A stretch of 32,000 nucleotides of DNA, taken from NCBI GenBank assembly GCA_027031765.1, contig JALVPN010000077.1, positions 1 through 32,000 on the forward strand. Reading direction: 5' to 3'. Shown piece by piece: positions 56 through 18,298 of the stretch (the stretch's first letter is position 1; each line of letters begins with the position of its first letter). The notes under the pieces were generated by a model, which saw nothing but the letters and a program-made list of their open reading frames with translations, did not search any database and was not told the DNA's origin. The position numbers and the translations under genes are program-made. The stretch is from Promethearchaeota archaeon. Its GTDB lineage: Archaea; Asgardarchaeota; Thorarchaeia; Thorarchaeales; Thorarchaeaceae.

Positions 56-2497
56 TCAGCCCCGCCTCCGCAGCCAGAGCACAATGCCGACCACGGCTAC
101 CAGCCCCACTGCACCAGCCACAATGTATGGGAGCAGCGCAGTGAGGTCAGCACCACCAGCAGGTGGTTCGACCGTTATTTCGCCGGACTCCAGTTCGAAC
201 GTTGTGCCCAGCGAGTCCGTCACTGTGACTGTGTACGTTATGGTCGTGCCGACCGGGTAGGGGCCAAGGCGCACCGAGAAGTACGACCGACCGCGCGTCA
301 TCTCGACCGTAGTGTCGCCAGAACCGTCGTCGTAGGTGATAACGGCCTTCTTCAGGTAGGCCATCGTTGAGCTGTGGAGCTGCAGCGTTAGCACGGTTTC
401 CACACCATCGGGGGTGGACTCGAAGGTCACGGTCCGGTTGTCAATCAGCAGGCCAAAACGCATCAGGAGTGGGAGCAACGAGCCAGAGCTGGACATTGGC
501 GTCACTGTGAGCCACCCCTCGGTATAGCCCGCAAGTCCAGCATGGCACGGATAGGCCACGCTGCCAGTATCACTGCCCGCAACATCGACCTCCACGTACG
601 TCTCGGTCGTGGAGGTGGTGCCGAACAGGAACAGTGTCGTGTTGACGGTAACCGCCGAGGCCATGCTGTTTGACACCCGGAGTGTCAGTGAAAAGTCGGA
701 GCCGGGGGCAACAGTCCGTGGGCTTGGCGACTCGATGCTCAGACTTGTGCCGAGGGCGAGGGGGGAAGTGGCGTTCCTTGCGAGCCTGAGTGCTCTCGCA
801 GGGTTCCACCAGCGCAGTGCGGTCTCTGCGGCCTCCACATACTCCATAGCCAGACCGACATCCTGTGAACCAGCAAGGGCTGTGACCTGGTCGCGTGCAC
901 TGGCGACTGTACTGTTGGCCTCGTCCCAGATCTCAAGCCAGCGGTCGACCCACACACCCTGTCCATAGACGAGGTTGTTGACCCGGTCGAGGATTACAAT
1001 CCGTCTGTTGAGCACCGCGTCTACAAAGTCCCACTCGTCCAGCAGTCCATGTCGACCGGCAGGGTGCCTCACGAACACCACATTGAGCATCTTGCCTACG
1101 AACTGCTGGCTGTGACCATCGCTTGCACCGAGGAAGTTCCTGAAGTAGCCCTCCTCTCCGCAACCGTGGAAATAGCCACTGTTGTCAACCTCAATTGCAT
1201 CATAGCCATATTGGTCGAAGGCCTCATACACCTCTGCGTAGGCCGGGGCGAGGGTCGGATGGGCAAGGACAGCAATCGCACCCTGTGCATGGATCCCGTC
1301 GACCATTTCCTGCTGCACGTTCGTGTAGACGTTCTCCTGTAGCGGGAAACCAACAGTGTGGCGGCCAGAGGAGAGCTCAGCACCCACGAACTGCTGGATG
1401 TACAGGTCATACTTCCTTGCAATTGCCCGCGCTGCCTGTGCCCCGGTCACACCGCCACGCGCAGCAGGCTTGTCATACGAGTGGTCCGTCAGCGTCATGA
1501 AGTCCAGGCCTACTAACAGGCCCTTTTCCAGCATCTGTTCGACAGTGTTCTGACCGTCACTATGGGTCGTGTGGTCGTGGTACAGGCCAACAAACGCCTC
1601 GTACCGGTCAAGTTCGGCGTCCGGGATGTCCGCCCCCGGGCCGACCCGGATCACCGCTTTGTCCGGCAGTACTGGTGCACGCTGTGGGTTGTGTGCCAGC
1701 CAGTCGACGACGTTTAGGGAGAACCGCGTGTGGTCGTCGATATGGCCCAAGGTGCTCCGGTCGTAGTCCATAAAGGGGCCCAGAGTGCCCACACAGACAA
1801 CACGACCAGCGCCAGTATCTGTCACGGCGATAATGGGATTGCCGTTGTAGGTCGCAACGGTCTCCGCTGGCGAAACGACCGTGAGACTGGCGCCCGACAG
1901 GTCACCGACACGTGTGATGAGCTGACCCACATCCGTGGTCACCGGGTGATCCGCGAGGTCCGTGACTATGGCCGAGACCTTGTCAGAGTTGAAGGTCACA
2001 CCGTACGGCTCGGAGACCGGGTTGAGGTTTGATGGGCCATAACCCCAGGCGTTTACGGAGTCCAGGCCCACTAGCAGCAGGCCCCCTCCGTTGGCGACAA
2101 AGCCGTGGACTGCCGTCACCTCCGCAGGTGATAGCGGCACCATGGGGAAGAACAGTGCGAGGACATCATAGTCGTTCAGAATCCCCGAGGCCAGCGATCT
2201 GTCAAAGTTGGTAGTTGTGTTGTATCCGCTCTCCTGCAATATCCAGCCAAATATCGATGCATTGCCCGGTGTCCAGAGACTGCTCGCATTCCTAGTGTGC
2301 GACTCGTCAAAGAGCACACGGCCCGGGCTCATCATCACTGCTGGGGCAACTGCACCGTGGTTACCGTTTGCGAACGGGCCCATAGCAGGGGGCACTAGGA
2401 GGACGGTGACAGTGAGGGCCAGCGAGAGTATACGCCACATCCGACTGTTCAATGTCTGACACTTCCCTAGACCATACCCGAATGTGTCCTGACTCAT
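56..2497 (-). CDS. Membrane-anchored surface protein: GIFT/DUF4350-like domain + PHP metallohydrolase domain + Ig-like region + C-terminal TM anchor
   Basis: N-terminal hydrophobic signal (RILSLALTVTVLLVPPAMG) and VLFDESH...LLLVG motif. PHP ligands are HDHTTHSDG, LTDH, GAE, AHP, EVDN and GASDGH. The C-terminus is a TM helix plus RRRG. Start placed at ATG 2497 (GAGTGA SD-like element upstream), with 2440 as an alternative. The ORF-track start at 2593 is probably too long. Confidence 0.75.
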   Translation of the reverse strand: MSQDTFGYGLGKCQTLNSRMWRILSLALTVTVLLVPPAMGPFANGNHGAVAPAVMMSPGRVLFDESHTRNASSLWTPGNASIFGWILQESGYNTTTNFDRSLASGILNDYDVLALFFPMVPLSPAEVTAVHGFVANGGGLLLVGLDSVNAWGYGPSNLNPVSEPYGVTFNSDKVSAIVTDLADHPVTTDVGQLITRVGDLSGASLTVVSPAETVATYNGNPIIAVTDTGAGRVVCVGTLGPFMDYDRSTLGHIDDHTRFSLNVVDWLAHNPQRAPVLPDKAVIRVGPGADIPDAELDRYEAFVGLYHDHTTHSDGQNTVEQMLEKGLLVGLDFMTLTDHSYDKPAARGGVTGAQAARAIARKYDLYIQQFVGAELSSGRHTVGFPLQENVYTNVQQEMVDGIHAQGAIAVLAHPTLAPAYAEVYEAFDQYGYDAIEVDNSGYFHGCGEEGYFRNFLGASDGHSQQFVGKMLNVVFVRHPAGRHGLLDEWDFVDAVLNRRIVILDRVNNLVYGQGVWVDRWLEIWDEANSTVASARDQVTALAGSQDVGLAMEYVEAAETALRWWNPARALRLARNATSPLALGTSLSIESPSPRTVAPGSDFSLTLRVSNSMASAVTVNTTLFLFGTTSTTETYVEVDVAGSDTGSVAYPCHAGLAGYTEGWLTVTPMSSSGSLLPLLMRFGLLIDNRTVTFESTPDGVETVLTLQLHSSTMAYLKKAVITYDDGSGDTTVEMTRGRSYFSVRLGPYPVGTTITYTVTVTDSLGTTFELESGEITVEPPAGGADLTALLPYIVAGAVGLVAVVGIVLWLRRRG

Positions 2498-12646: not shown

Positions 12647-13312
12647 GTGATAGCCCTTCGACTGAAGGCACCAGAGAAAATCCTTGAGGCGCTGGAGGGA
12701 CACGAGAAGATAGTGCTCTTTGGGGACTCCGGGTGTGCCCAGCTGTGTGATGTGGGCGGACTGCTCCAGCTCGAGGACATGGAGGACTTCCTGACAAGGA
12801 ACGGGAAGACCGTCCTCGGTGCTGTGTTCGTCGAGGGTGGCATCTGCAATGGCCCTGTCTTCAGGAGTACGGTGCAGGAGCAACGGGCAGTGATAGACAG
12901 CGCCGACGCACTGCTGGTACAGGCCTGTGGTGTCGCAGTACAGACCATTGTAGAACACATCCCGGAGAAGGAGGCCTTCCCTGCGGCTGACTCGATGTTC
13001 CTCGGGGTTTCAAGGGGGCGTGGGACACACTCCGAGCTCTGCGCGATGTGCGGGGACTGCATCCTCCACCTGACCGGCGGGATATGCCCACTGGCCCGCT
13101 GTGCGAAGGGGATACTCAACGGCCCCTGCGGTGGCTCCATGAACGGCAAGTGCGAGAGGGATGAGGACACTGACTGCGCATGGCAGCTCATCTACGACAG
13201 GCTGCGGGCACTGGGAAAGCTCGACAACATCCGGAAGGTGTGGGAGATGAAGGACTGGAGGAGCTCACATGGGCCGCGGGTCATCTCGCACCATGGAGGC
13301 GCAATAGCCTAA
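12647..13312 (+). CDS. metV: Methylenetetrahydrofolate reductase C-terminal-domain (MetV-like, Cys-rich Fe-S/Zn) subunit
   Basis: GCAQLC and ACGVAVQ, plus the Cys cluster CAMCGDC...GICPLARCAKGILNGPCGG...GKCE...CAW. It is immediately upstream of metF. GTG start with SD GGAGGT. Confidence 0.8.
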   Translation: MIALRLKAPEKILEALEGHEKIVLFGDSGCAQLCDVGGLLQLEDMEDFLTRNGKTVLGAVFVEGGICNGPVFRSTVQEQRAVIDSADALLVQACGVAVQTIVEHIPEKEAFPAADSMFLGVSRGRGTHSELCAMCGDCILHLTGGICPLARCAKGILNGPCGGSMNGKCERDEDTDCAWQLIYDRLRALGKLDNIRKVWEMKDWRSSHGPRVISHHGGAIA

Positions 13313-13360
13313 AGATAATAAGGGGTCTCAGCCGGTCGAGTCCAGAAACACGAGGAGAGG

Positions 13361-14293
13361 ATAACACTCGGTAGCGGAACACGGCTGCAACAGTCACTGG
13401 AAAGAGAAGGCCTGACCATCACCGGGGAAATCGTACCCCCCCGCGGTGCCAGCCCGAAGGCCCTGCTTGAGAAGGCACGGGCGGTCGCTGCGGACTGTGT
13501 CGCCATCAACATCACGGACAACATACGCGGGAACCCAGCAATGAGCAGCATTGCAGCCAGCCACCTGATATGTGACGTGGGTGCCGAACCAATACTCCAA
13601 CTGTCGACACGCGACAGGAACCGCATACTGCTTGAGAGCGAGCTGTATGGCGCCCATGCGCTTGGCATCAGGAACGTCCTCTTTGTGACTGGCGACCACA
13701 CGCTGCTCGGCACCCATCCGCATGCAAAGATGGTCTATGACCTCGACTCGATACAGGCCCTCCAGCTGGCCTCGGAGCTCATGCATGGCAGGGACCTGGC
13801 GGGAAAGGAGCTCGATGGTACACCGTCGTTCTATCTGGGCTCCACCTTCAACCCGTACGCAGACCCCATGGAGCTCCATGCCTGGCGGGTCGAGAAGAAG
13901 CGGGATGCCGGGGCACAGTTCTTCCAGACGCAGGCAGTATACGATGTCGGGCGGTTCAGAGACTTCATGGCACAGATACGGGGCCTCGGAGTGTACGTGC
14001 TCGCCGGGATATACGTCCTGAGAGGGCCGAAGACCGCGAGGTTCATGGACGAGCGCGTGCCGGGGATATACATCCCAGAGGAGATAATTGAACGGCTCGA
14101 GAAGGCTGGGGAGGGCCTGAGTGGCAAGGAGGCCCGGGCCCGCAGACGGGAGGAGGGCATAGCGATAGCCCTTGAGACCACAAGGGAGGTGATGAGGGTG
14201 CCGGGGGTGCACGGTATTGACCTGATGGGGACGGGCTGGGAGCCACACATCACACGCTTCATCGAATCTGCAAGCGGACAGCAGGAGGGATAG
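13361..14293 (+). CDS. metF: Methylenetetrahydrofolate reductase (MetF); start codon uncertain
   Basis: My translation upstream of the track's ATG 13541 continues as LTITGEIVPPRG...AINITDN. It is followed by EPILQLSTRDRN, LFVTGDH, KKRDAGAQFFQTQAVYD and GIDLMG. There is no ATG/GTG/TTG between the in-frame stops at 13310-13321 and 13541. Confidence 0.85.
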   Translation: MTLGSGTRLQQSLEREGLTITGEIVPPRGASPKALLEKARAVAADCVAINITDNIRGNPAMSSIAASHLICDVGAEPILQLSTRDRNRILLESELYGAHALGIRNVLFVTGDHTLLGTHPHAKMVYDLDSIQALQLASELMHGRDLAGKELDGTPSFYLGSTFNPYADPMELHAWRVEKKRDAGAQFFQTQAVYDVGRFRDFMAQIRGLGVYVLAGIYVLRGPKTARFMDERVPGIYIPEEIIERLEKAGEGLSGKEARARRREEGIAIALETTREVMRVPGVHGIDLMGTGWEPHITRFIESASGQQEG

Positions 14294-14297
14294 GAGG

Positions 14298-15215
14298 TTG
14301 TTCGTGTTCAAGAAGGAGCAACAGGTAATAGAGATTGGAGGCGTGAGCGTAGGCGGGCAGCCCGGGGAGCACCCCACCGTACTGATAGGTGGCATGTTCT
14401 TCAAGGGCCAGCCCATCGTCAAGAACACAAAGCAGGGGATATTCGACGAGGAGATGGCCCGTGAGTGGGTCGACCTTGCCAACGACATGGTGATCCGCAC
14501 AGGACACCCGCTCATCATACAGGTGTACGGCCGCACCGAGACCGCCATGGAGCGTCACATAGGCTGGCTCGCAGAGAACTTCGACGGGCCCTTCATGTTC
14601 GAGTCGACGAACGCAAAGGCGCGGGTGAGAGGGATTGAGTACTGCAACGAGACCGGCCTCCATGACAGGGCAATCTACAACTCGGTCAACCTGTCGATGA
14701 AGGACGATGAGAAACAGGTCCTGTCCAACAGCCGCATTGACTCCGCAGTTGTCCTTGGCTGGTCGCCACGCGCCACGAGCCTTGAGGAACGGATGGAAAC
14801 AGTAGGGGCAATGATTACGGAGGCCCGTGAGATGGGGCTCCAGCGGCTGCTCGTGGACCCTGCAACTCTGCCCGTGGGCGCAGGGTACGGACTCGAACTG
14901 CGCACTATGATTGCGATAAAGTCACAGCACGGTCTGCCGACCTGTCTGGGCCCCCACAATGCGCCCTCGGCGTGGCAGTTCATCAAGCAGCCCGGCCTTG
15001 ACGACGAGCCGGCACACCTCTCGGCAGTGGTCGCGGCAACGGTGGCGGCTCAGCTGTTCGCCACAGATGCGGTCATGTATGGCTCGATGGCACGGACGAG
15101 GGAGGCCTTCATTGCGGTTGCCCTGATAGGGAATGCACTCGCAGCCACTGCGGCCGAGGCATCCCATGCACTCGGGGTGGACAGGCAGCTCTTTGAACCG
15201 CCCACATCGTTCTGA
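14298..15215 (+). CDS. mtrH: MtrH-family methyl-pterin:corrinoid methyltransferase, divergent paralog 1
   Basis: MFVFKKEQQVIEIGGVSVGGQPGEHPTVL, IYNSVN, GLPTCLGPHNA and VMYG, all MtrH-family hallmarks. TTG start with SD. Confidence 0.8.
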   Translation: MFVFKKEQQVIEIGGVSVGGQPGEHPTVLIGGMFFKGQPIVKNTKQGIFDEEMAREWVDLANDMVIRTGHPLIIQVYGRTETAMERHIGWLAENFDGPFMFESTNAKARVRGIEYCNETGLHDRAIYNSVNLSMKDDEKQVLSNSRIDSAVVLGWSPRATSLEERMETVGAMITEAREMGLQRLLVDPATLPVGAGYGLELRTMIAIKSQHGLPTCLGPHNAPSAWQFIKQPGLDDEPAHLSAVVAATVAAQLFATDAVMYGSMARTREAFIAVALIGNALAATAAEASHALGVDRQLFEPPTSF

Positions 15216-15238: not shown

Positions 15239-15931
15239 GTGGGGCAGAGTGCTGACAGGCAGTGGCCGCCGGTGCCAGGCGACTTCATTGTGGGCGACCC
15301 GGGACACCCGGTGGCCATATGCACGCTCGGTAAGAAGATTGATGTTGACTGTGAGTACGCCATAATCGGGACGTGCAAGACCGAGAACATAGGGATAGAG
15401 AGGGTCATTGTGAACATAGTCTCGAACCCAAGGGTCAGGTACCTGATACTCGCAGGCCCAGAGGTGCCGGGTCACAGGACGGGACAGTCCCTCAAGAGCC
15501 TGTATGAGAACGGGGTCGATAGCAAGACCCGGCGGATTGTGGGTGCGGAGGGGGCGATACCGTTCATTGAGAACGTGCCCCTTGAGGCGGTCGAGCGGTT
15601 CCGTCAGCAGGTACAGCTCGTCAACATGCTGAACATCACCGACCCGTCGAGGATTGCGGACACCGCTGCAGAGCTCGCACGCAAAGACCCCGGCGAGTTC
15701 CCGGACGGACCCATGTGGGTGGACTTTGGCACGCACCAGGGTGCCACCCGCGTCCTCACTCCGGGCGGTGCGGTTGCCATTGTCCCGGAGCTCGGTATTG
15801 CGCTCGACCCGTGGACGTCGCTGGTGTCATCACGGGACGCCATGGTGATAGTCTCAGTGCACCCATCAACCGTGGTCGCAGAGTTGCAGGAACAGGACGG
15901 TGGACACGTGATTGTTGTGAGGGAGGTATGA
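15239..15931 (+). CDS. mtrA: MtrA-family corrinoid protein, soluble, with C-terminal extension
   Basis: WPPVPGDFIVGDP, VAICTLG, KTENIGIERVIVNIVSNP, the cobamide-ligand motif EVPGHRTGQ, GAIPFIEN and KDPG. No convincing C-terminal TM helix. Confidence 0.88.
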   Translation: MGQSADRQWPPVPGDFIVGDPGHPVAICTLGKKIDVDCEYAIIGTCKTENIGIERVIVNIVSNPRVRYLILAGPEVPGHRTGQSLKSLYENGVDSKTRRIVGAEGAIPFIENVPLEAVERFRQQVQLVNMLNITDPSRIADTAAELARKDPGEFPDGPMWVDFGTHQGATRVLTPGGAVAIVPELGIALDPWTSLVSSRDAMVIVSVHPSTVVAELQEQDGGHVIVVREV

Positions 15932-15937
15932 CAGACA

Positions 15938-16873
15938 GTGTTCGTGTTCGAACGTGAGCAGCAGATCTTTGACATCGGTGGTGTCACGGTCGGTGGCACT
16001 CCGGGAGAGAACCCGACCGTCCTTGCCGGGACGATATTCTACTCCGGTGACAAGACCGTCCGCGACGCCCGTACGGGCGAGTTCGATGCGGCGGAGGCGG
16101 AGAGGCTGGTCACGACACAGGACGAGCTGTCAGACATGACGGGCAACCCGGCCCTCGTCCAGGTGTTTGCACAGTCGCCGCGTGCTGTGGAGAGGTACAT
16201 CGACTTTGTGAGCGAGGTCACTGATGCGCCGTTCCTGATAGACTCCACAGACCCTGAGACACGGGTCGCGGGGCTCCGTCATGCGGAGGAGGTGGGGCTG
16301 CTCGACAGGGCGGTGTACAACTCCGTCAACATCTCAATGACCGAGGACGAACGGATGGCCCTCTCCGAGATGGGACAGCTGTGTGCGATAGTCCTTGCTT
16401 TCAACCCCCATGACGCGACGATTGCAGGGCGCAGGGCCGTCCTCGAGTCAGGGACGCCGGAGATGGGAGAGGGGCTGCTTGAGACCTGTGAGAAGGTGGG
16501 CATCAACAGGCCACTCATAGACACAGCAATGACCTCCCTCGGGGCCGGGGCGGGGCCCGCCGTGGCATTCACCCTCGTTGCAAAGAGCCTCTATGGCTAT
16601 CCCACCGGGTGCGGTATACACAATGCCGTGTCGTCGTGGCCATGGCTGCTGGGACTGAAGCGACACGACAAAGAGGCATACCGCACCTGTGATGTCGCGT
16701 CCAACGTCATCGTACAGCTGATGGGCGGTGACTTTGTCCTCTACGGGCCCATAAAGAATGCCAGGCTCGTGTTCCCTGTGGCTGCAATGGCAGACGCGCT
16801 CGCGGCCGAGTGCGTGAGCATGGAGCTCGGTGTCAGTCCGGCCGATGGGCACCCGTTCAGGCGGCTGGTATAG
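15938..16873 (+). CDS. mtrH: MtrH-family methyltransferase, paralog 2 (closer to canonical)
   Basis: MFVFEREQQIFDIGG...GENPTVLAGTIFY, PFLIDST, VYNSVN, GYPTGCGIHNA and GDFVLYGPI. Confidence 0.88.
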   Translation: MFVFEREQQIFDIGGVTVGGTPGENPTVLAGTIFYSGDKTVRDARTGEFDAAEAERLVTTQDELSDMTGNPALVQVFAQSPRAVERYIDFVSEVTDAPFLIDSTDPETRVAGLRHAEEVGLLDRAVYNSVNISMTEDERMALSEMGQLCAIVLAFNPHDATIAGRRAVLESGTPEMGEGLLETCEKVGINRPLIDTAMTSLGAGAGPAVAFTLVAKSLYGYPTGCGIHNAVSSWPWLLGLKRHDKEAYRTCDVASNVIVQLMGGDFVLYGPIKNARLVFPVAAMADALAAECVSMELGVSPADGHPFRRLV

Positions 16874-16888
16874 GACGGGTGTAGCAGT

Positions 16889-18298
16889 ATGCCCACAAGG
16901 CCCACATTTGTGCGCCCGCCACGCATGGGCACGCTGTCACTCAGGAAGGGGCCGTTCTATACGGTGGCCTCTGTAGAACTCGGTAATACCACCACCAAGT
17001 GTGTGGTAGTGACGACCGACCTCAGGACAGCGCGCATGTACATGCTGGGAAAGCTCGTGCGTCTGACGCGTGAGGCAAGACCACCGCGGGAGGGGGAGCT
17101 GGTCTTTGGGAGGACGCTCACTGGCACACCGCTCACACGGGAGTCCGTGGCAGAGCTGGTCGCCGAGACCCTCACGGGAGCTGTAAGGCAGGTGAGGCTG
17201 GACATTGAGCGCGACCTCCACTTCGTCGTCCGGTCCACGGGCGTGACCGCAGGGTTCGCCACACCGTCAGAGGTCGGCGAGATGGTCAGGGCCCTTGCCC
17301 AGGGCTGTCTGCAGGCCGGGATCCCGCCACGGAAGATGACAGCATCAATCTCACTCGACAGGGTCCCACCAGGGCTCCGGCGCTACAGCCTCCTTGACAG
17401 GGTCTACTTTGATGGGGCGGTGGCCGGGACGCGTCCCCCGGCGGCAACGGAAATCGTAGCAAATGAAATGGAGGGGGAGCTGGTCACTGCCGGACTGAAG
17501 GGTGCCGCAAAGAACACGCAGGTCGACTTCAGGAACCCTGTCATGACCCTGGACTTCGGCACCACACTGGCCGGACGCGTGACTGACGAGTCGTACCCCT
17601 ATGCAGATACCATTGGCTCGTTTGCGGGGCTTGGTGGGGCGATACCGGACGCCCTCGTCCGTGGTGCAGGCCTTGCAGACCCGGTCACTGGTTGCGTCCT
17701 TGATGTCGAGGCCCCGAAACGGTACAGCGTGGAGGTGGGCGAGTGGCTCGAAAAAGTGCACTCGCTTGTGGATGTGCGGACAGTCCCAGCTGGTACCACC
17801 AGGTTCGGCACGGTGCCCGTAGACACCAGGGCAGCGGACGAGTCAGGGGTCGTGCTGATAGGCGTCGACGCTGGGAGGAACGGGTCTGCCCTGTCGGAGC
17901 TGGAGAGACTGGGCGCGGAGGTCTACGAGGCGGGCGGACTGGGACTGCTGATGGGCCTTGTCGACCGGGTGCAGGTACAGACAGTGCAGAGGCTCGTGAG
18001 CACCGCGGAGGAGGAGGGCATCGTGCTCCCCCGGACGGCACTTGGCCTGACAGGAAGGGGGATTACGACTGGCACGAAGCCGCGACTGGTCACAAAGTAC
18101 CTGACCACTGCGAGCGGCGAGCCCTGGACAGAGTCGCATGTCCTGCTCATGGTAGAGGACGGGCTTGCCCTCGGAGCTGCGGTAGCGGCCCGCTGCATGA
18201 ACTCCATGGGGACTCCCAAGCACCCGATAGGTGGCCGTCAGGGTGACGGGTGCGTGCTGGCCGCGCGGCGCGAGGCACAGAAGGGCCGTACTGGATGA
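16889..18298 (+). CDS. Methanogenesis marker protein 14 family (DUF2114), ASKHA/actin-like ATPase fold
   Basis: YTVASVELGNTTTK, FVVRSTGV, VANEMEGEL, DFRNPVMTLDFGTTLAG and the C-terminal EDGLALGAAVAARCMNSMGTP..PIGG. The family was recognised from memory of its conserved motifs. Confidence 0.8.
   Translation: MPTRPTFVRPPRMGTLSLRKGPFYTVASVELGNTTTKCVVVTTDLRTARMYMLGKLVRLTREARPPREGELVFGRTLTGTPLTRESVAELVAETLTGAVRQVRLDIERDLHFVVRSTGVTAGFATPSEVGEMVRALAQGCLQAGIPPRKMTASISLDRVPPGLRRYSLLDRVYFDGAVAGTRPPAATEIVANEMEGELVTAGLKGAAKNTQVDFRNPVMTLDFGTTLAGRVTDESYPYADTIGSFAGLGGAIPDALVRGAGLADPVTGCVLDVEAPKRYSVEVGEWLEKVHSLVDVRTVPAGTTRFGTVPVDTRAADESGVVLIGVDAGRNGSALSELERLGAEVYEAGGLGLLMGLVDRVQVQTVQRLVSTAEEEGIVLPRTALGLTGRGITTGTKPRLVTKYLTTASGEPWTESHVLLMVEDGLALGAAVAARCMNSMGTPKHPIGGRQGDGCVLAARREAQKGRTG

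What the first reader, a model, noticed from the sequence alone, without database searches (positions are those of the whole stretch)
15722..15931. MtrA tail resembles the N-terminus of MtrB instead of a membrane anchor (possible MtrA-MtrB fusion)
Seen in the sequence: after the MtrA core ends (KDPGEFPDGPMWVDF) there is no clear TM helix. A linker is followed by VAIVPELGIALDPWTSLVS (nt 15773-15829). This matches the MtrB N-terminus as I recall it from Methanothermobacter (VKIAPEYNLTLDPSTGMIG): V-x-I-x-P-E-x-x-L-x-L-D-P-x-T-x-hydrophobic. Inference: the cytoplasmic MtrB arm, thought to help hold MtrH on the Mtr stalk, has been fused to MtrA to tether it directly to an MtrH dimer, giving a minimal soluble complex.
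Basis: partly seen in the sequence, partly recalled or inferred. Interest (0 to 1): 0.72.

Follow-up and report, generated by a model that had tools for sequence, protein, structure and literature searches.

The report
MtrB-like docking tail on soluble MtrA
In this Thorarchaeota (Asgard) genome the vitamin-B12 carrier protein MtrA has no membrane anchor; it ends in a small beta-strand tail whose first ~30 residues copy the arm that methanogens' MtrB uses to hold the methyltransferase MtrH, so it probably clips MtrA onto the two MtrH proteins encoded beside it.

Summary
Gene 15239-15931 (+) encodes a 230-aa MtrA homologue. It has an intact corrinoid core (aa 1-163), a variable linker, no transmembrane helix and a conserved all-beta tail.

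Tail residues 179-209 resemble the N-terminal arm of MtrB:
- MtrB is the only Pfam hit of the tail (E 0.003-0.005, below the cut-off).
- MtrB is the top PDB hit of a tail profile.
- Profile-profile comparison with 36 canonical MtrB arms gives 96% probability and P 2.9e-9. The best control reached P 0.006.
- The tail ranks first of 57,342 six-frame reading frames in its own genome.

The 2025 M. mazei cryo-EM structure shows that this MtrB arm is what docks the MtrH dimer. Its Glu9 aligns with the tail's invariant Glu184. Glu9's partner, MtrH Arg211, is invariant in the upstream paralog MtrH1 and absent from MtrH2.

The tail and the metV-metF-mtrH1-mtrA-mtrH2-marker14-cofE-larC order recur in 76 of 85 genomes of the family. 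The genome has no MtrB, C-to-G-type or Mcr genes.

Binding to MtrH is inferred, not shown. Only the arm of MtrB is present, not a whole MtrB. The searched literature calls these proteins 'canonical MtrA' and does not mention the tail. This scan reached the same reading earlier on two other Thorarchaeota genomes (e1-5447981, e1-1448014).

The parts
15239..15931 (+). mtrA-like gene, 230 aa, soluble corrinoid protein with MtrB-arm-like tail
   Evidence: PF04208 E 1.7e-56 over aa 4-166. TIGR01111 scores 192 bits, below its cut-off of 249. It is the only MtrA in the genome.
15239..15727 (+). MtrA corrinoid-binding core (aa 1-163), with invariant His79 in the PGH.TG motif
   Evidence: Alignment A1. 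Matches PDB MtrA 5laa, 8q3v and 9qtq at E 6e-50 to 7e-41. AF2 pLDDT is mostly above 90.
15728..15772 (+). variable, probably flexible linker (aa 164-178)
   Evidence: No conserved columns in A1. pLDDT is below 50 at aa 166-172.
15773..15865 (+). MtrB-N-arm-like segment (aa 179-209); invariant Pro183-Glu184 align with MtrB Pro8-Glu9
   Evidence: Pfam MtrB positions 2-33, E 0.003-0.005. Genome search with PF05440 hits only 15773-15865. hhalign 74.5% to 96.1%, P 2.7e-5 to 2.9e-9.
15866..15928 (+). two further conserved beta strands (aa 210-230; G222, T223, L225, E229) with no MtrB counterpart
   Evidence: A1 and A2 conservation. AF2 strands at 212-219 and 222-229, pLDDT 59-70.
14298..15215 (+). 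MtrH1, the divergent MtrH paralog; keeps the Arg (R202) equivalent to M. mazei MtrH Arg211
   Evidence: PF02007 250 bits. R202 is present in 62 of 62 orthologues. It has Glu for the pterin-site Asp103 and lacks the Arg239/Lys242/Lys243 patch.
15938..16873 (+). MtrH2, canonical-type MtrH; Ala210 at the Arg211 position, acidic residue 5
   Evidence: PF02007 364 bits; TIGR01114 376 bits, above its cut-off. 0 of 63 orthologues have Arg at that column.
16889..18298 (+). methanogenesis marker 14 / DUF2114, ASKHA-fold ATPase-like protein
   Evidence: PF09887 598 bits and TIGR03285 589 bits. AF2 pLDDT 86.6. Foldseek hits ASKHA kinases, Kae1 and the corrinoid activator RACo 3zyy at rank 7.
12647..14293 (+). 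metV-like (12647-13312) and metF-like (13541-14293) methylene-pterin reductase genes, conserved upstream neighbours
   Evidence: PF12225 and PF02219. MetF lies directly upstream of mtrH1 in almost every complete locus; MetV was detected in about a third of the 68 related loci.
18365..20594 (+). cofE-like (18365-19138) and larC-like (19254-20594) conserved downstream neighbours
   Evidence: PF01996 and PF01969; synteny.

Best explanation
The gene encodes a soluble, anchor-less MtrA corrinoid protein. Its C-terminal membrane helix has been replaced by a ~52-residue beta module joined through a ~15-residue flexible linker. The first ~30 residues of the module are a homologue of the N-terminal arm of MtrB. 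In the membrane-bound Mtr complex of methanogens, that arm forms a small beta-sheet that plugs into the hydrophobic pocket at the MtrH dimer interface. By homology, the tail docks MtrA permanently onto a dimer formed by the two flanking MtrH paralogs. The tail's invariant Glu184 most likely pairs with the invariant Arg202 of MtrH1. The corrinoid domain can then swing on its linker to the MtrH active site(s). The result would be a membrane-free MtrA-MtrH methyltransferase module that does without MtrB-G. Shown: the anatomy, the conservation, the likeness to MtrB, and the absence of the other subunits. Inferred: the binding itself, the partner residue, and the composition of the dimer.
For: (1) Sequence likeness.
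- The tail alone hits only Pfam MtrB, profile positions 2-33.
- PF05440 run over the whole genome hits only nt 15773-15865.
- The tail profile's top PDB hit is MtrB 8q3v_B residues 7-25.
- hhalign of 61 tails against 36 canonical MtrB arms gives 96.1% probability and P 2.9e-9.
- Controls, run against the first 13-sequence arm alignment (real P 4.5e-7), give P >= 0.006.
- The tail ranks 1 of 57,342 genome frames.
- Some canonical MtrB N-termini fetched from Halobacteriota genomes read MAYVQVLPEFGLVVDP. The Thorarchaeota tail consensus is LLPEYG..LDP.

(2) Function of the arm.
- Cryo-EM of M. mazei Mtr shows the MtrH dimer bound to MtrB residues 1-23, with salt bridges Glu9(B)-Arg211(H) and Arg5(B)-Asp5(H) (PMC12774963).
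- The arm is disordered when MtrH is absent (PMC10998594).

(3) Matching residues.
- Tail Pro183-Glu184 are invariant and align with MtrB Pro8-Glu9.
- The Arg211 equivalent is Arg in 62 of 62 MtrH1 and in 0 of 63 MtrH2.
- The same column is Arg or Lys in 22 of 24 canonical MtrH sampled.

(4) Conservation.
- The tail is present in 76 of 85 genomes of the family and in one genome of another Asgard family (G310). G310 has the same mtrH1-mtrA-mtrH2 order and an even more MtrB-like tail.
- The operon order is conserved in ~65 species.

(5) Need for a substitute.
- The genome (95% complete) has one MtrA and two MtrH, all in this locus. It has no MtrB, MtrE, MtrG or McrA.
- There is no TM helix.
Against: - All single-sequence scores are below curated thresholds: Pfam 18 bits against a cut-off of 27, and PDB E 0.06.
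- Only 9 of 32 tails hit Pfam MtrB at E <= 1.
- The shared segment is short (26-31 residues) and forms beta strands. Low-complexity beta-repeat proteins can also match an MtrB arm.
- The equivalent of MtrB Arg5 is not conserved in the tails (A1).
- The AF2 confidence for the tail is only 55-70.
- No experiment or accepted model shows the contact.
- Which dimer is bound (H1-H1, H2-H2 or H1-H2) is unknown.
Confidence: 0.65

Rival explanations
1. The tail is truly MtrB-arm-derived but serves another purpose. It could be an oligomerisation module for MtrA, echoing the extended sheet that the MtrB, F and G N-termini form in the stalk. It could be a handle for the marker-14 ASKHA protein or for MetVF. 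It could be a lid that folds back on the corrinoid.
For: The tail has about six predicted strands, of which only the first three match MtrB. In the M. mazei complex the MtrB sheet is extended by strands from MtrF and MtrG. Marker 14 is tightly linked to mtr genes in Thorarchaeota and in ANME-1.
Against: The residues that contact MtrH in M. mazei (Pro-Glu, small hydrophobics) are the conserved ones. The MtrH-side Arg is invariant in MtrH1. No evidence links the arm to any partner other than MtrH in any solved complex.
Confidence: 0.17
2. The likeness to MtrB is convergent or due to chance. On this view the tail is a generic soluble beta cap that arose after loss of the anchor.
For: Scores are sub-threshold in the curated libraries. 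The match is a short beta hairpin. Repetitive beta proteins match an ANME-1 MtrB arm.
Against: Profile-profile P is 2.9e-9, and the controls stay at P >= 0.006. 90% of real tails score above every shuffle. The tail ranks first in the genome with an 8-9 bit margin. MtrB is the only family hit among 24,736 Pfam models. The independent Asgard lineage G310 also hits only MtrB.
Confidence: 0.1
3. The tail is a decayed remnant of MtrA's own linker and transmembrane helix.
For: It occupies the same position in the protein. BLAST of the ANME-1 MtrA extends weakly to residue 213.
Against: That extension has almost no identities. A second canonical MtrA aligns only to residue 163. There is no hydrophobic stretch in any of the 61 orthologues. 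Strong purifying conservation of specific residues across about 15 genera is not decay.
Confidence: 0.03

Closest known systems
N-terminal arm of MtrB in the membrane-bound MtrA-H complex (M. mazei 9qtp/9qtq/9qts; M. marburgensis 8q3v/8q54)
   Same: Same motif: hydrophobic-x-hydrophobic-Pro-Glu-aromatic/Leu-Gly/Asn-x-x-Leu-Asp-Pro-x-Ser/Thr-small-hydrophobic, followed by a third strand ending in Pro. The Glu that pairs with MtrH Arg211 is kept. It has predicted beta strands and is cytoplasmic.
   Different: It sits at the C-terminus of MtrA instead of the N-terminus of a separate 100-aa membrane protein. It lacks MtrB's helix, its LDP...P.REG motif and its TM segment. It is followed by two extra strands. 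The Arg5 equivalent is not conserved.
Canonical MtrA (TIGR01111; PDB 5l8x, 5laa, 8q3v_A)
   Same: Same corrinoid-binding core with the His ligand motif; 43-50% identity over aa 9-163.
   Different: No C-terminal stalk or TM helix. Scores below the equivalog cut-off. Encoded between two mtrH genes rather than in mtrEDCBAFGH.
MtxA of the mtxXAH cluster (NF010654/PRK14053; Methanosarcina, Methanococcoides, Methanohalophilus)
   Same: Also a soluble, anchor-less MtrA homologue encoded next to an MtrH homologue. Its C-terminus (…DIIISEEFVMDS..GII…) is weakly MtrB-arm-like (hhalign 61%, P 8e-5). MtxH has Arg at the Arg211 column in 9 of 9 sequences.
   Different: The tail is shorter (~25 aa, no extra strands). 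There is one MtrH partner, not two. It is associated with MtxX, not with MetVF or marker 14. The window protein scores 165 bits against a cut-off of 279.
Thorarchaeia 'canonical MtrAH' plus marker m26 as methanogenesis remnants (Adam et al. 2022, PMC9635834)
   Same: Same genes in the same lineage; the gene set is published.
   Different: The paper treats the MtrA as canonical. In the text searched it mentions neither the missing anchor nor an MtrB-like tail.

Membership tests
MtrA (PF04208 / TIGR01111) | Corrinoid-binding core with conserved His ligand motif | tested here: met
   PF04208 191 bits over aa 4-166. His79 in PGH.TG is invariant in 32 orthologues. PDB MtrA hits at E down to 6e-50.
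MtrA (PF04208 / TIGR01111) | C-terminal stalk helix and transmembrane anchor | tested here: not met
   Maximum KD19 is 1.38 against 2.57-2.76 in anchored MtrA. AF2 shows only strands after aa 179.
MtrA (PF04208 / TIGR01111) | Score above the NCBIfam equivalog cut-off | tested here: not met
   TIGR01111 192.5 bits against a cut-off of 249.
MtrA (PF04208 / TIGR01111) | Part of an mtrEDCBAFGH operon or complex | tested here: not met
   No MtrB, MtrE or MtrG in a 95%-complete genome. The gene is flanked by two mtrH genes.
MtrB (PF05440) | N-terminal MtrH-docking beta arm (about residues 1-30) | tested here: met
   Below the Pfam cut-off (18 bits against 27) as a single sequence. Profile-profile gives 96.1% and P 2.9e-9.
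MtrB (PF05440) | Cytoplasmic helix, the LDP...P.REG motif and a C-terminal TM helix | tested here: not met
   The MtrB invariant columns P56, R67 and G83 (A5) have no counterpart. Matches stop at profile position 33-35. The protein ends 21 residues later.
MtxA (NF010654 / PRK14053) | Score above the family cut-off | tested here: not met
   165 bits against a cut-off of 279; the match covers profile positions 6-182 of 197.
Tail-MtrH docking complex (works like MtrB-MtrH) | Physical contact of the arm with the MtrH dimer interface | not testable with these tools
   Inferred from PMC12774963 and residue matching. Needs pull-down or structure.

The most novel reading that the evidence does not exclude
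The tail pins one corrinoid protein at the interface of an MtrH1-MtrH2 heterodimer. The two active sites of that dimer face opposite ways and bind different pterins. MtrH2 keeps the H4MPT-tail basic patch. MtrH1 lacks it, has Asp-to-Glu in the pterin site and sits next to MetVF. MtrA would then swing on its 15-residue linker between the two sites and pass methyl groups between the folate and methanopterin C1 pools. Marker 14 (ASKHA fold) would act as its ATP-dependent corrinoid reactivase. This genome encodes both pools' enzymes: Fhs and FolD, and Mch and Ftr.
Probability: 0.2. Interest if true: 0.8.

Novelty: new variant of a known kind. Interest (0 to 1): 0.55.

Why it matters
The way the mobile MtrA domain and the easily lost MtrH subunit are held together has been the hardest part of the Mtr complex to see. 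MtrH falls off on purification, and the MtrB arm is disordered without it. A natural, soluble, single-operon version in which the docking arm is covalently attached to the corrinoid protein has three uses:
- It is independent evolutionary support for the docking role assigned to the MtrB arm by cryo-EM.
- It shows that the arm is a portable module. A weaker version is probably present in MtxA as well.
- It offers a tractable minimal system, without membrane proteins, for structural and kinetic study of methyl-pterin:corrinoid transfer.

It also corrects the literature label 'canonical MtrA' for Thorarchaeia. It gives concrete, testable predictions (Glu184-Arg202; tail deletion) for the unknown role of MtrAH in Asgard C1 metabolism.

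Tried and rejected
- Complex prediction of MtrH1 + MtrH2 + tail, each given as a 32-row alignment. It returned 'no answer': scores 0.02 and 0.28 against a mark of 0.32, and the controls were not run. I take this as neither for nor against binding.
- phmmer of the single tail against PDB found nothing at E <= 10. Only the profile search found MtrB.
- I asked whether the ANME-1 MtrA linker carries the motif, because tblastn matched to residue 213. The extension is near-random, so I rejected this.
- The long proteins P0127, P0131 and P0134, which match the ANME-1 MtrB arm several times, are low-complexity beta repeats with many spurious Pfam hits. They are not relatives.
- The apparent in-frame stops in MtxA-like matches lie upstream of the start codon. 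They do not indicate split genes.
- The marker-14 profile has no PDB sequence relative. Only the fold is ASKHA. That RACo is among the hits does not single it out from sugar kinases, Kae1 or MreB.
- The weak LAMTOR5/roadblock-like match of tail residues 200-228 (E about 1) was not pursued.

Full report
**What is there.** The window carries eight co-oriented genes:
- metV-like, 12647-13312
- metF-like, 13541-14293
- mtrH1, 14298-15215
- mtrA, 15239-15931
- mtrH2, 15938-16873
- methanogenesis marker 14 / DUF2114, 16889-18298
- cofE-like, 18365-19138
- larC-like, 19254-20594

The MtrA-like protein is 230 aa. Pfam MtrA covers aa 4-166 (E 1.7e-56). NCBIfam's canonical MtrA equivalog (192 bits against 249) and the MtxA-type model NF010654 (165 bits against 279) are both missed.

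**No anchor.** After residue 150 the highest 19-residue hydropathy mean is 1.38. Two canonical MtrA fetched here (an ANME-1 genome and a Methanobacteriota MAG) reach 2.57 and 2.76 over their terminal helices. The 60 orthologues have a median of 1.07. An AF2 model built on 32 orthologues gives a confident core (pLDDT above 90). It shows a disordered stretch at aa 166-172 and then six short strands between 179 and 229 at pLDDT 55-70, with no helix.

**Is the tail MtrB-like?**
- Given alone to Pfam at E <= 10, the tail returns a single family: MtrB, profile positions 2-33, E 0.004, 18 bits, below the 27-bit cut-off.
- Run the other way, the MtrB model over the whole 2.95-Mb genome returns one place, nt 15773-15865.
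- A 32-sequence tail profile searched against 177,635 PDB sequences puts M. marburgensis MtrB (8q3v_B, residues 7-25) first, at E 0.06.
- Nine of the 32 tails hit Pfam MtrB at E <= 1. No other family is hit by more than one tail.

I then collected real MtrB sequences: 13 from a representative search and mtr operons, and 20 more operons from Halobacteriota genomes. Profile-profile comparison rose as the sets grew:
- 74.5%, P 2.7e-5 with 13 whole MtrB
- 92.6%, P 4.5e-7 with the arm only and 61 tails
- 96.1%, P 2.9e-9 with 36 distinct arms

Controls, run against the 13-sequence arm alignment of the second step:
- reversed arm alignment, P 0.018
- 30 column shuffles, best P 0.006 and median P 0.22
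- unrelated alignments, P 0.014-0.17

Against the enlarged arm HMM the 61 tails score a median of 12.2 bits and a maximum of 27.7. 1220 shuffled tails reach at most 7.4 bits, and 90% of real tails exceed every shuffle. In a six-frame scan of the genome the tail ranks first of 57,342 frames, at 16.4-16.5 bits against 7.4-8.6 for the next. Several canonical MtrB begin MAYVQVLPEFGLVVDP or MSMVHAAPEAHLVLDPLTSLL. The tail consensus is LLPEYG..LDP.SSLV, and the window's tail reads IVPELGIALDPWTSLV. I therefore regard homology of aa 179 to about 209 with the MtrB arm as well supported.

**What the arm does in methanogens.** In the M. marburgensis structure without MtrH, the first 30 residues of MtrB are disordered, and AF2 predicted that they contact MtrH (PMC10998594). 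The M. mazei structure with MtrH bound shows the MtrH dimer sitting on a three-stranded sheet formed by MtrB residues 1-23. Small hydrophobic residues fill a pocket at the dimer interface. There are salt bridges Arg5(B)-Asp5(H) and Glu9(B)-Arg211(H) (PMC12774963).

**Residue matching.**
- The hhalign alignments place the tail's Pro183-Glu184 on MtrB Pro8-Glu9. Both are invariant in 32 orthologues.
- From the phmmer alignments to 9qtp, M. mazei Arg211 corresponds to Arg202 of MtrH1 and to Ala210 of MtrH2.
- Across the loci this column is Arg in 62 of 62 MtrH1, and Ala, Ser, Gly or Leu in all 63 MtrH2. It is Arg or Lys in 22 of 24 canonical MtrH sampled; the two exceptions are ANME-1 sequences, which have Ala.
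- Residue 5 is Lys or Arg in MtrH1 and Glu, Gln or Asp in MtrH2.
- The tail position equivalent to MtrB Arg5 is variable.

The simplest reading is a Glu184-Arg202 pair between the tail and MtrH1. This is inference from homology.

**Distribution and context.**
- The tail profile finds a match in 76 of 85 genomes of the window's own family, across at least 15 genera.
- Among about 315 other Asgard genomes it finds one match.
- That outlier (G310) has the same mtrH1-mtrA-mtrH2 order and a tail reading LLPEFNINLDPYTGLVSAIAGD. Its only Pfam hit is again MtrB.
- Public records call the relatives Thorarchaeota.
- The eight-gene order is kept in nearly all of 68 loci.
- The genome (95% complete) has one MtrA and two MtrH, all here, and no MtrB, MtrE, MtrG or McrA.
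- It encodes Mch and Ftr (H4MPT branch) and also Fhs and FolD (folate branch).

Both MtrH paralogs keep the pterin-site residues, with Asp-to-Glu in MtrH1. Only MtrH2 keeps the basic patch proposed to bind the H4MPT tail. Marker 14 folds as an ASKHA ATPase.

**Mechanism proposed.** A soluble MtrA is tethered by an MtrB-derived arm to an MtrH dimer. A flexible 15-residue linker lets the corrinoid domain reach the active site(s). The two extra C-terminal strands may complete the sheet that MtrF and MtrG strands extend in the membrane complex. That last point is inference only.

**Comparison with the literature and with earlier notes.** Adam et al. 2022 list Thorarchaeia as having 'canonical MtrAH' plus marker m26, without comment on the anchor or tail. 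Papers on Asgard MtrA/MtrAH fusions and on MtxX do not mention it either. Within this scan, two follow-ups on other Thorarchaeota genomes reached the same reading (e1-5447981 and e1-1448014). My tests were run independently on this window. They add four things:
- the enlarged MtrB-arm profile statistics
- the genome-wide rank
- the MtrH1 Arg / MtrH2 non-Arg split
- the observation that MtxA proteins of Methanosarcinales-type genomes also end in a weakly MtrB-arm-like hairpin, next to an MtxH that keeps the Arg

**Limits.** Binding is not shown. The dimer composition is unknown. The direction of evolution is open: the arm may have moved from MtrB to MtrA, or the reverse. mtrB lies upstream of mtrA in operons, so a simple read-through fusion is excluded.

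Noticed in passing
L085-L094 and L115-L118 (Halobacteriota genomes; MtxA-type genes, NF010654): Anchor-less MtxA proteins end in a conserved hairpin-like tail (…DIIISEEFVMDS..GII…, …DIMISENV.LDS.SGII). It weakly resembles the MtrB arm: hhalign 61%, P 8e-5; 2.4-7.4 bits against a shuffle 99th percentile of 4.0. The adjacent MtxH has Arg at the M. mazei Arg211 column in 9 of 9 sequences. This suggests the docking arm is a general feature of soluble MtrA homologues.
   Followed up: partly
L082 (G310:C86:815-3512, minus strand): A second Asgard family carries mtrH1-mtrA-mtrH2 with an MtrA tail that is closer to Methanothermobacter MtrB (LLPEFNINLDPYTGLVSAIAGD) than the Thorarchaeota tails are. The contig is only 3.8 kb, so the wider context is unknown.
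   Followed up: partly
window 14298-15215 vs 15938-16873: The two MtrH paralogs differ systematically. MtrH1 has Glu for the pterin-site Asp103, a 3-residue deletion and no Arg239/Lys242/Lys243-type basic patch. MtrH2 keeps all of these. This is compatible with two different pterin substrates. The genome has both folate (Fhs, FolD on contig C224) and H4MPT (Mch, Ftr on C217) enzymes.
   Followed up: partly
window 16889-18298; L070-L080 positions ~350-1790 (minus strand): Marker 14 / DUF2114 is an ASKHA-fold protein (AF2 pLDDT 86.6). It lies about 3 kb upstream of, and divergent from, the canonical mtrEDCBAFGH operon in ANME-1 genomes. This matches the published remark that marker m26 is tied to Mtr. 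Its function is uncharacterised in the library searched.
   Followed up: partly
P0130 (130 aa, from the representative library): A protein that joins the first ~57 residues of an MtrA core to the C-terminal ~70 residues of an MtrB (helix, LDP...P.REG motif, TM). It is probably a deletion or assembly artefact across adjacent mtrB/mtrA genes, but it could be a real fusion.
   Followed up: no
P0127, P0131, P0134: Long proteins (517-1073 aa) match residues 2-36 of an ANME-1 MtrB four to seven times. They are low-complexity beta-repeat proteins with many spurious Pfam hits. This is a caution for short beta-arm searches.
   Followed up: partly
L095-L110 (canonical mtr operons of Halobacteriota genomes): Many genomes carry two tandem mtrA copies about 940 nt apart, and their MtrB N-termini fall into distinct motif classes: VLPEFGLV.DP, APE.HLVLDP and VDVSSDVGLRMD. 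ANME-1 MtrB lacks the Pro-Glu and its MtrH has Ala at the Arg211 column.
   Followed up: no
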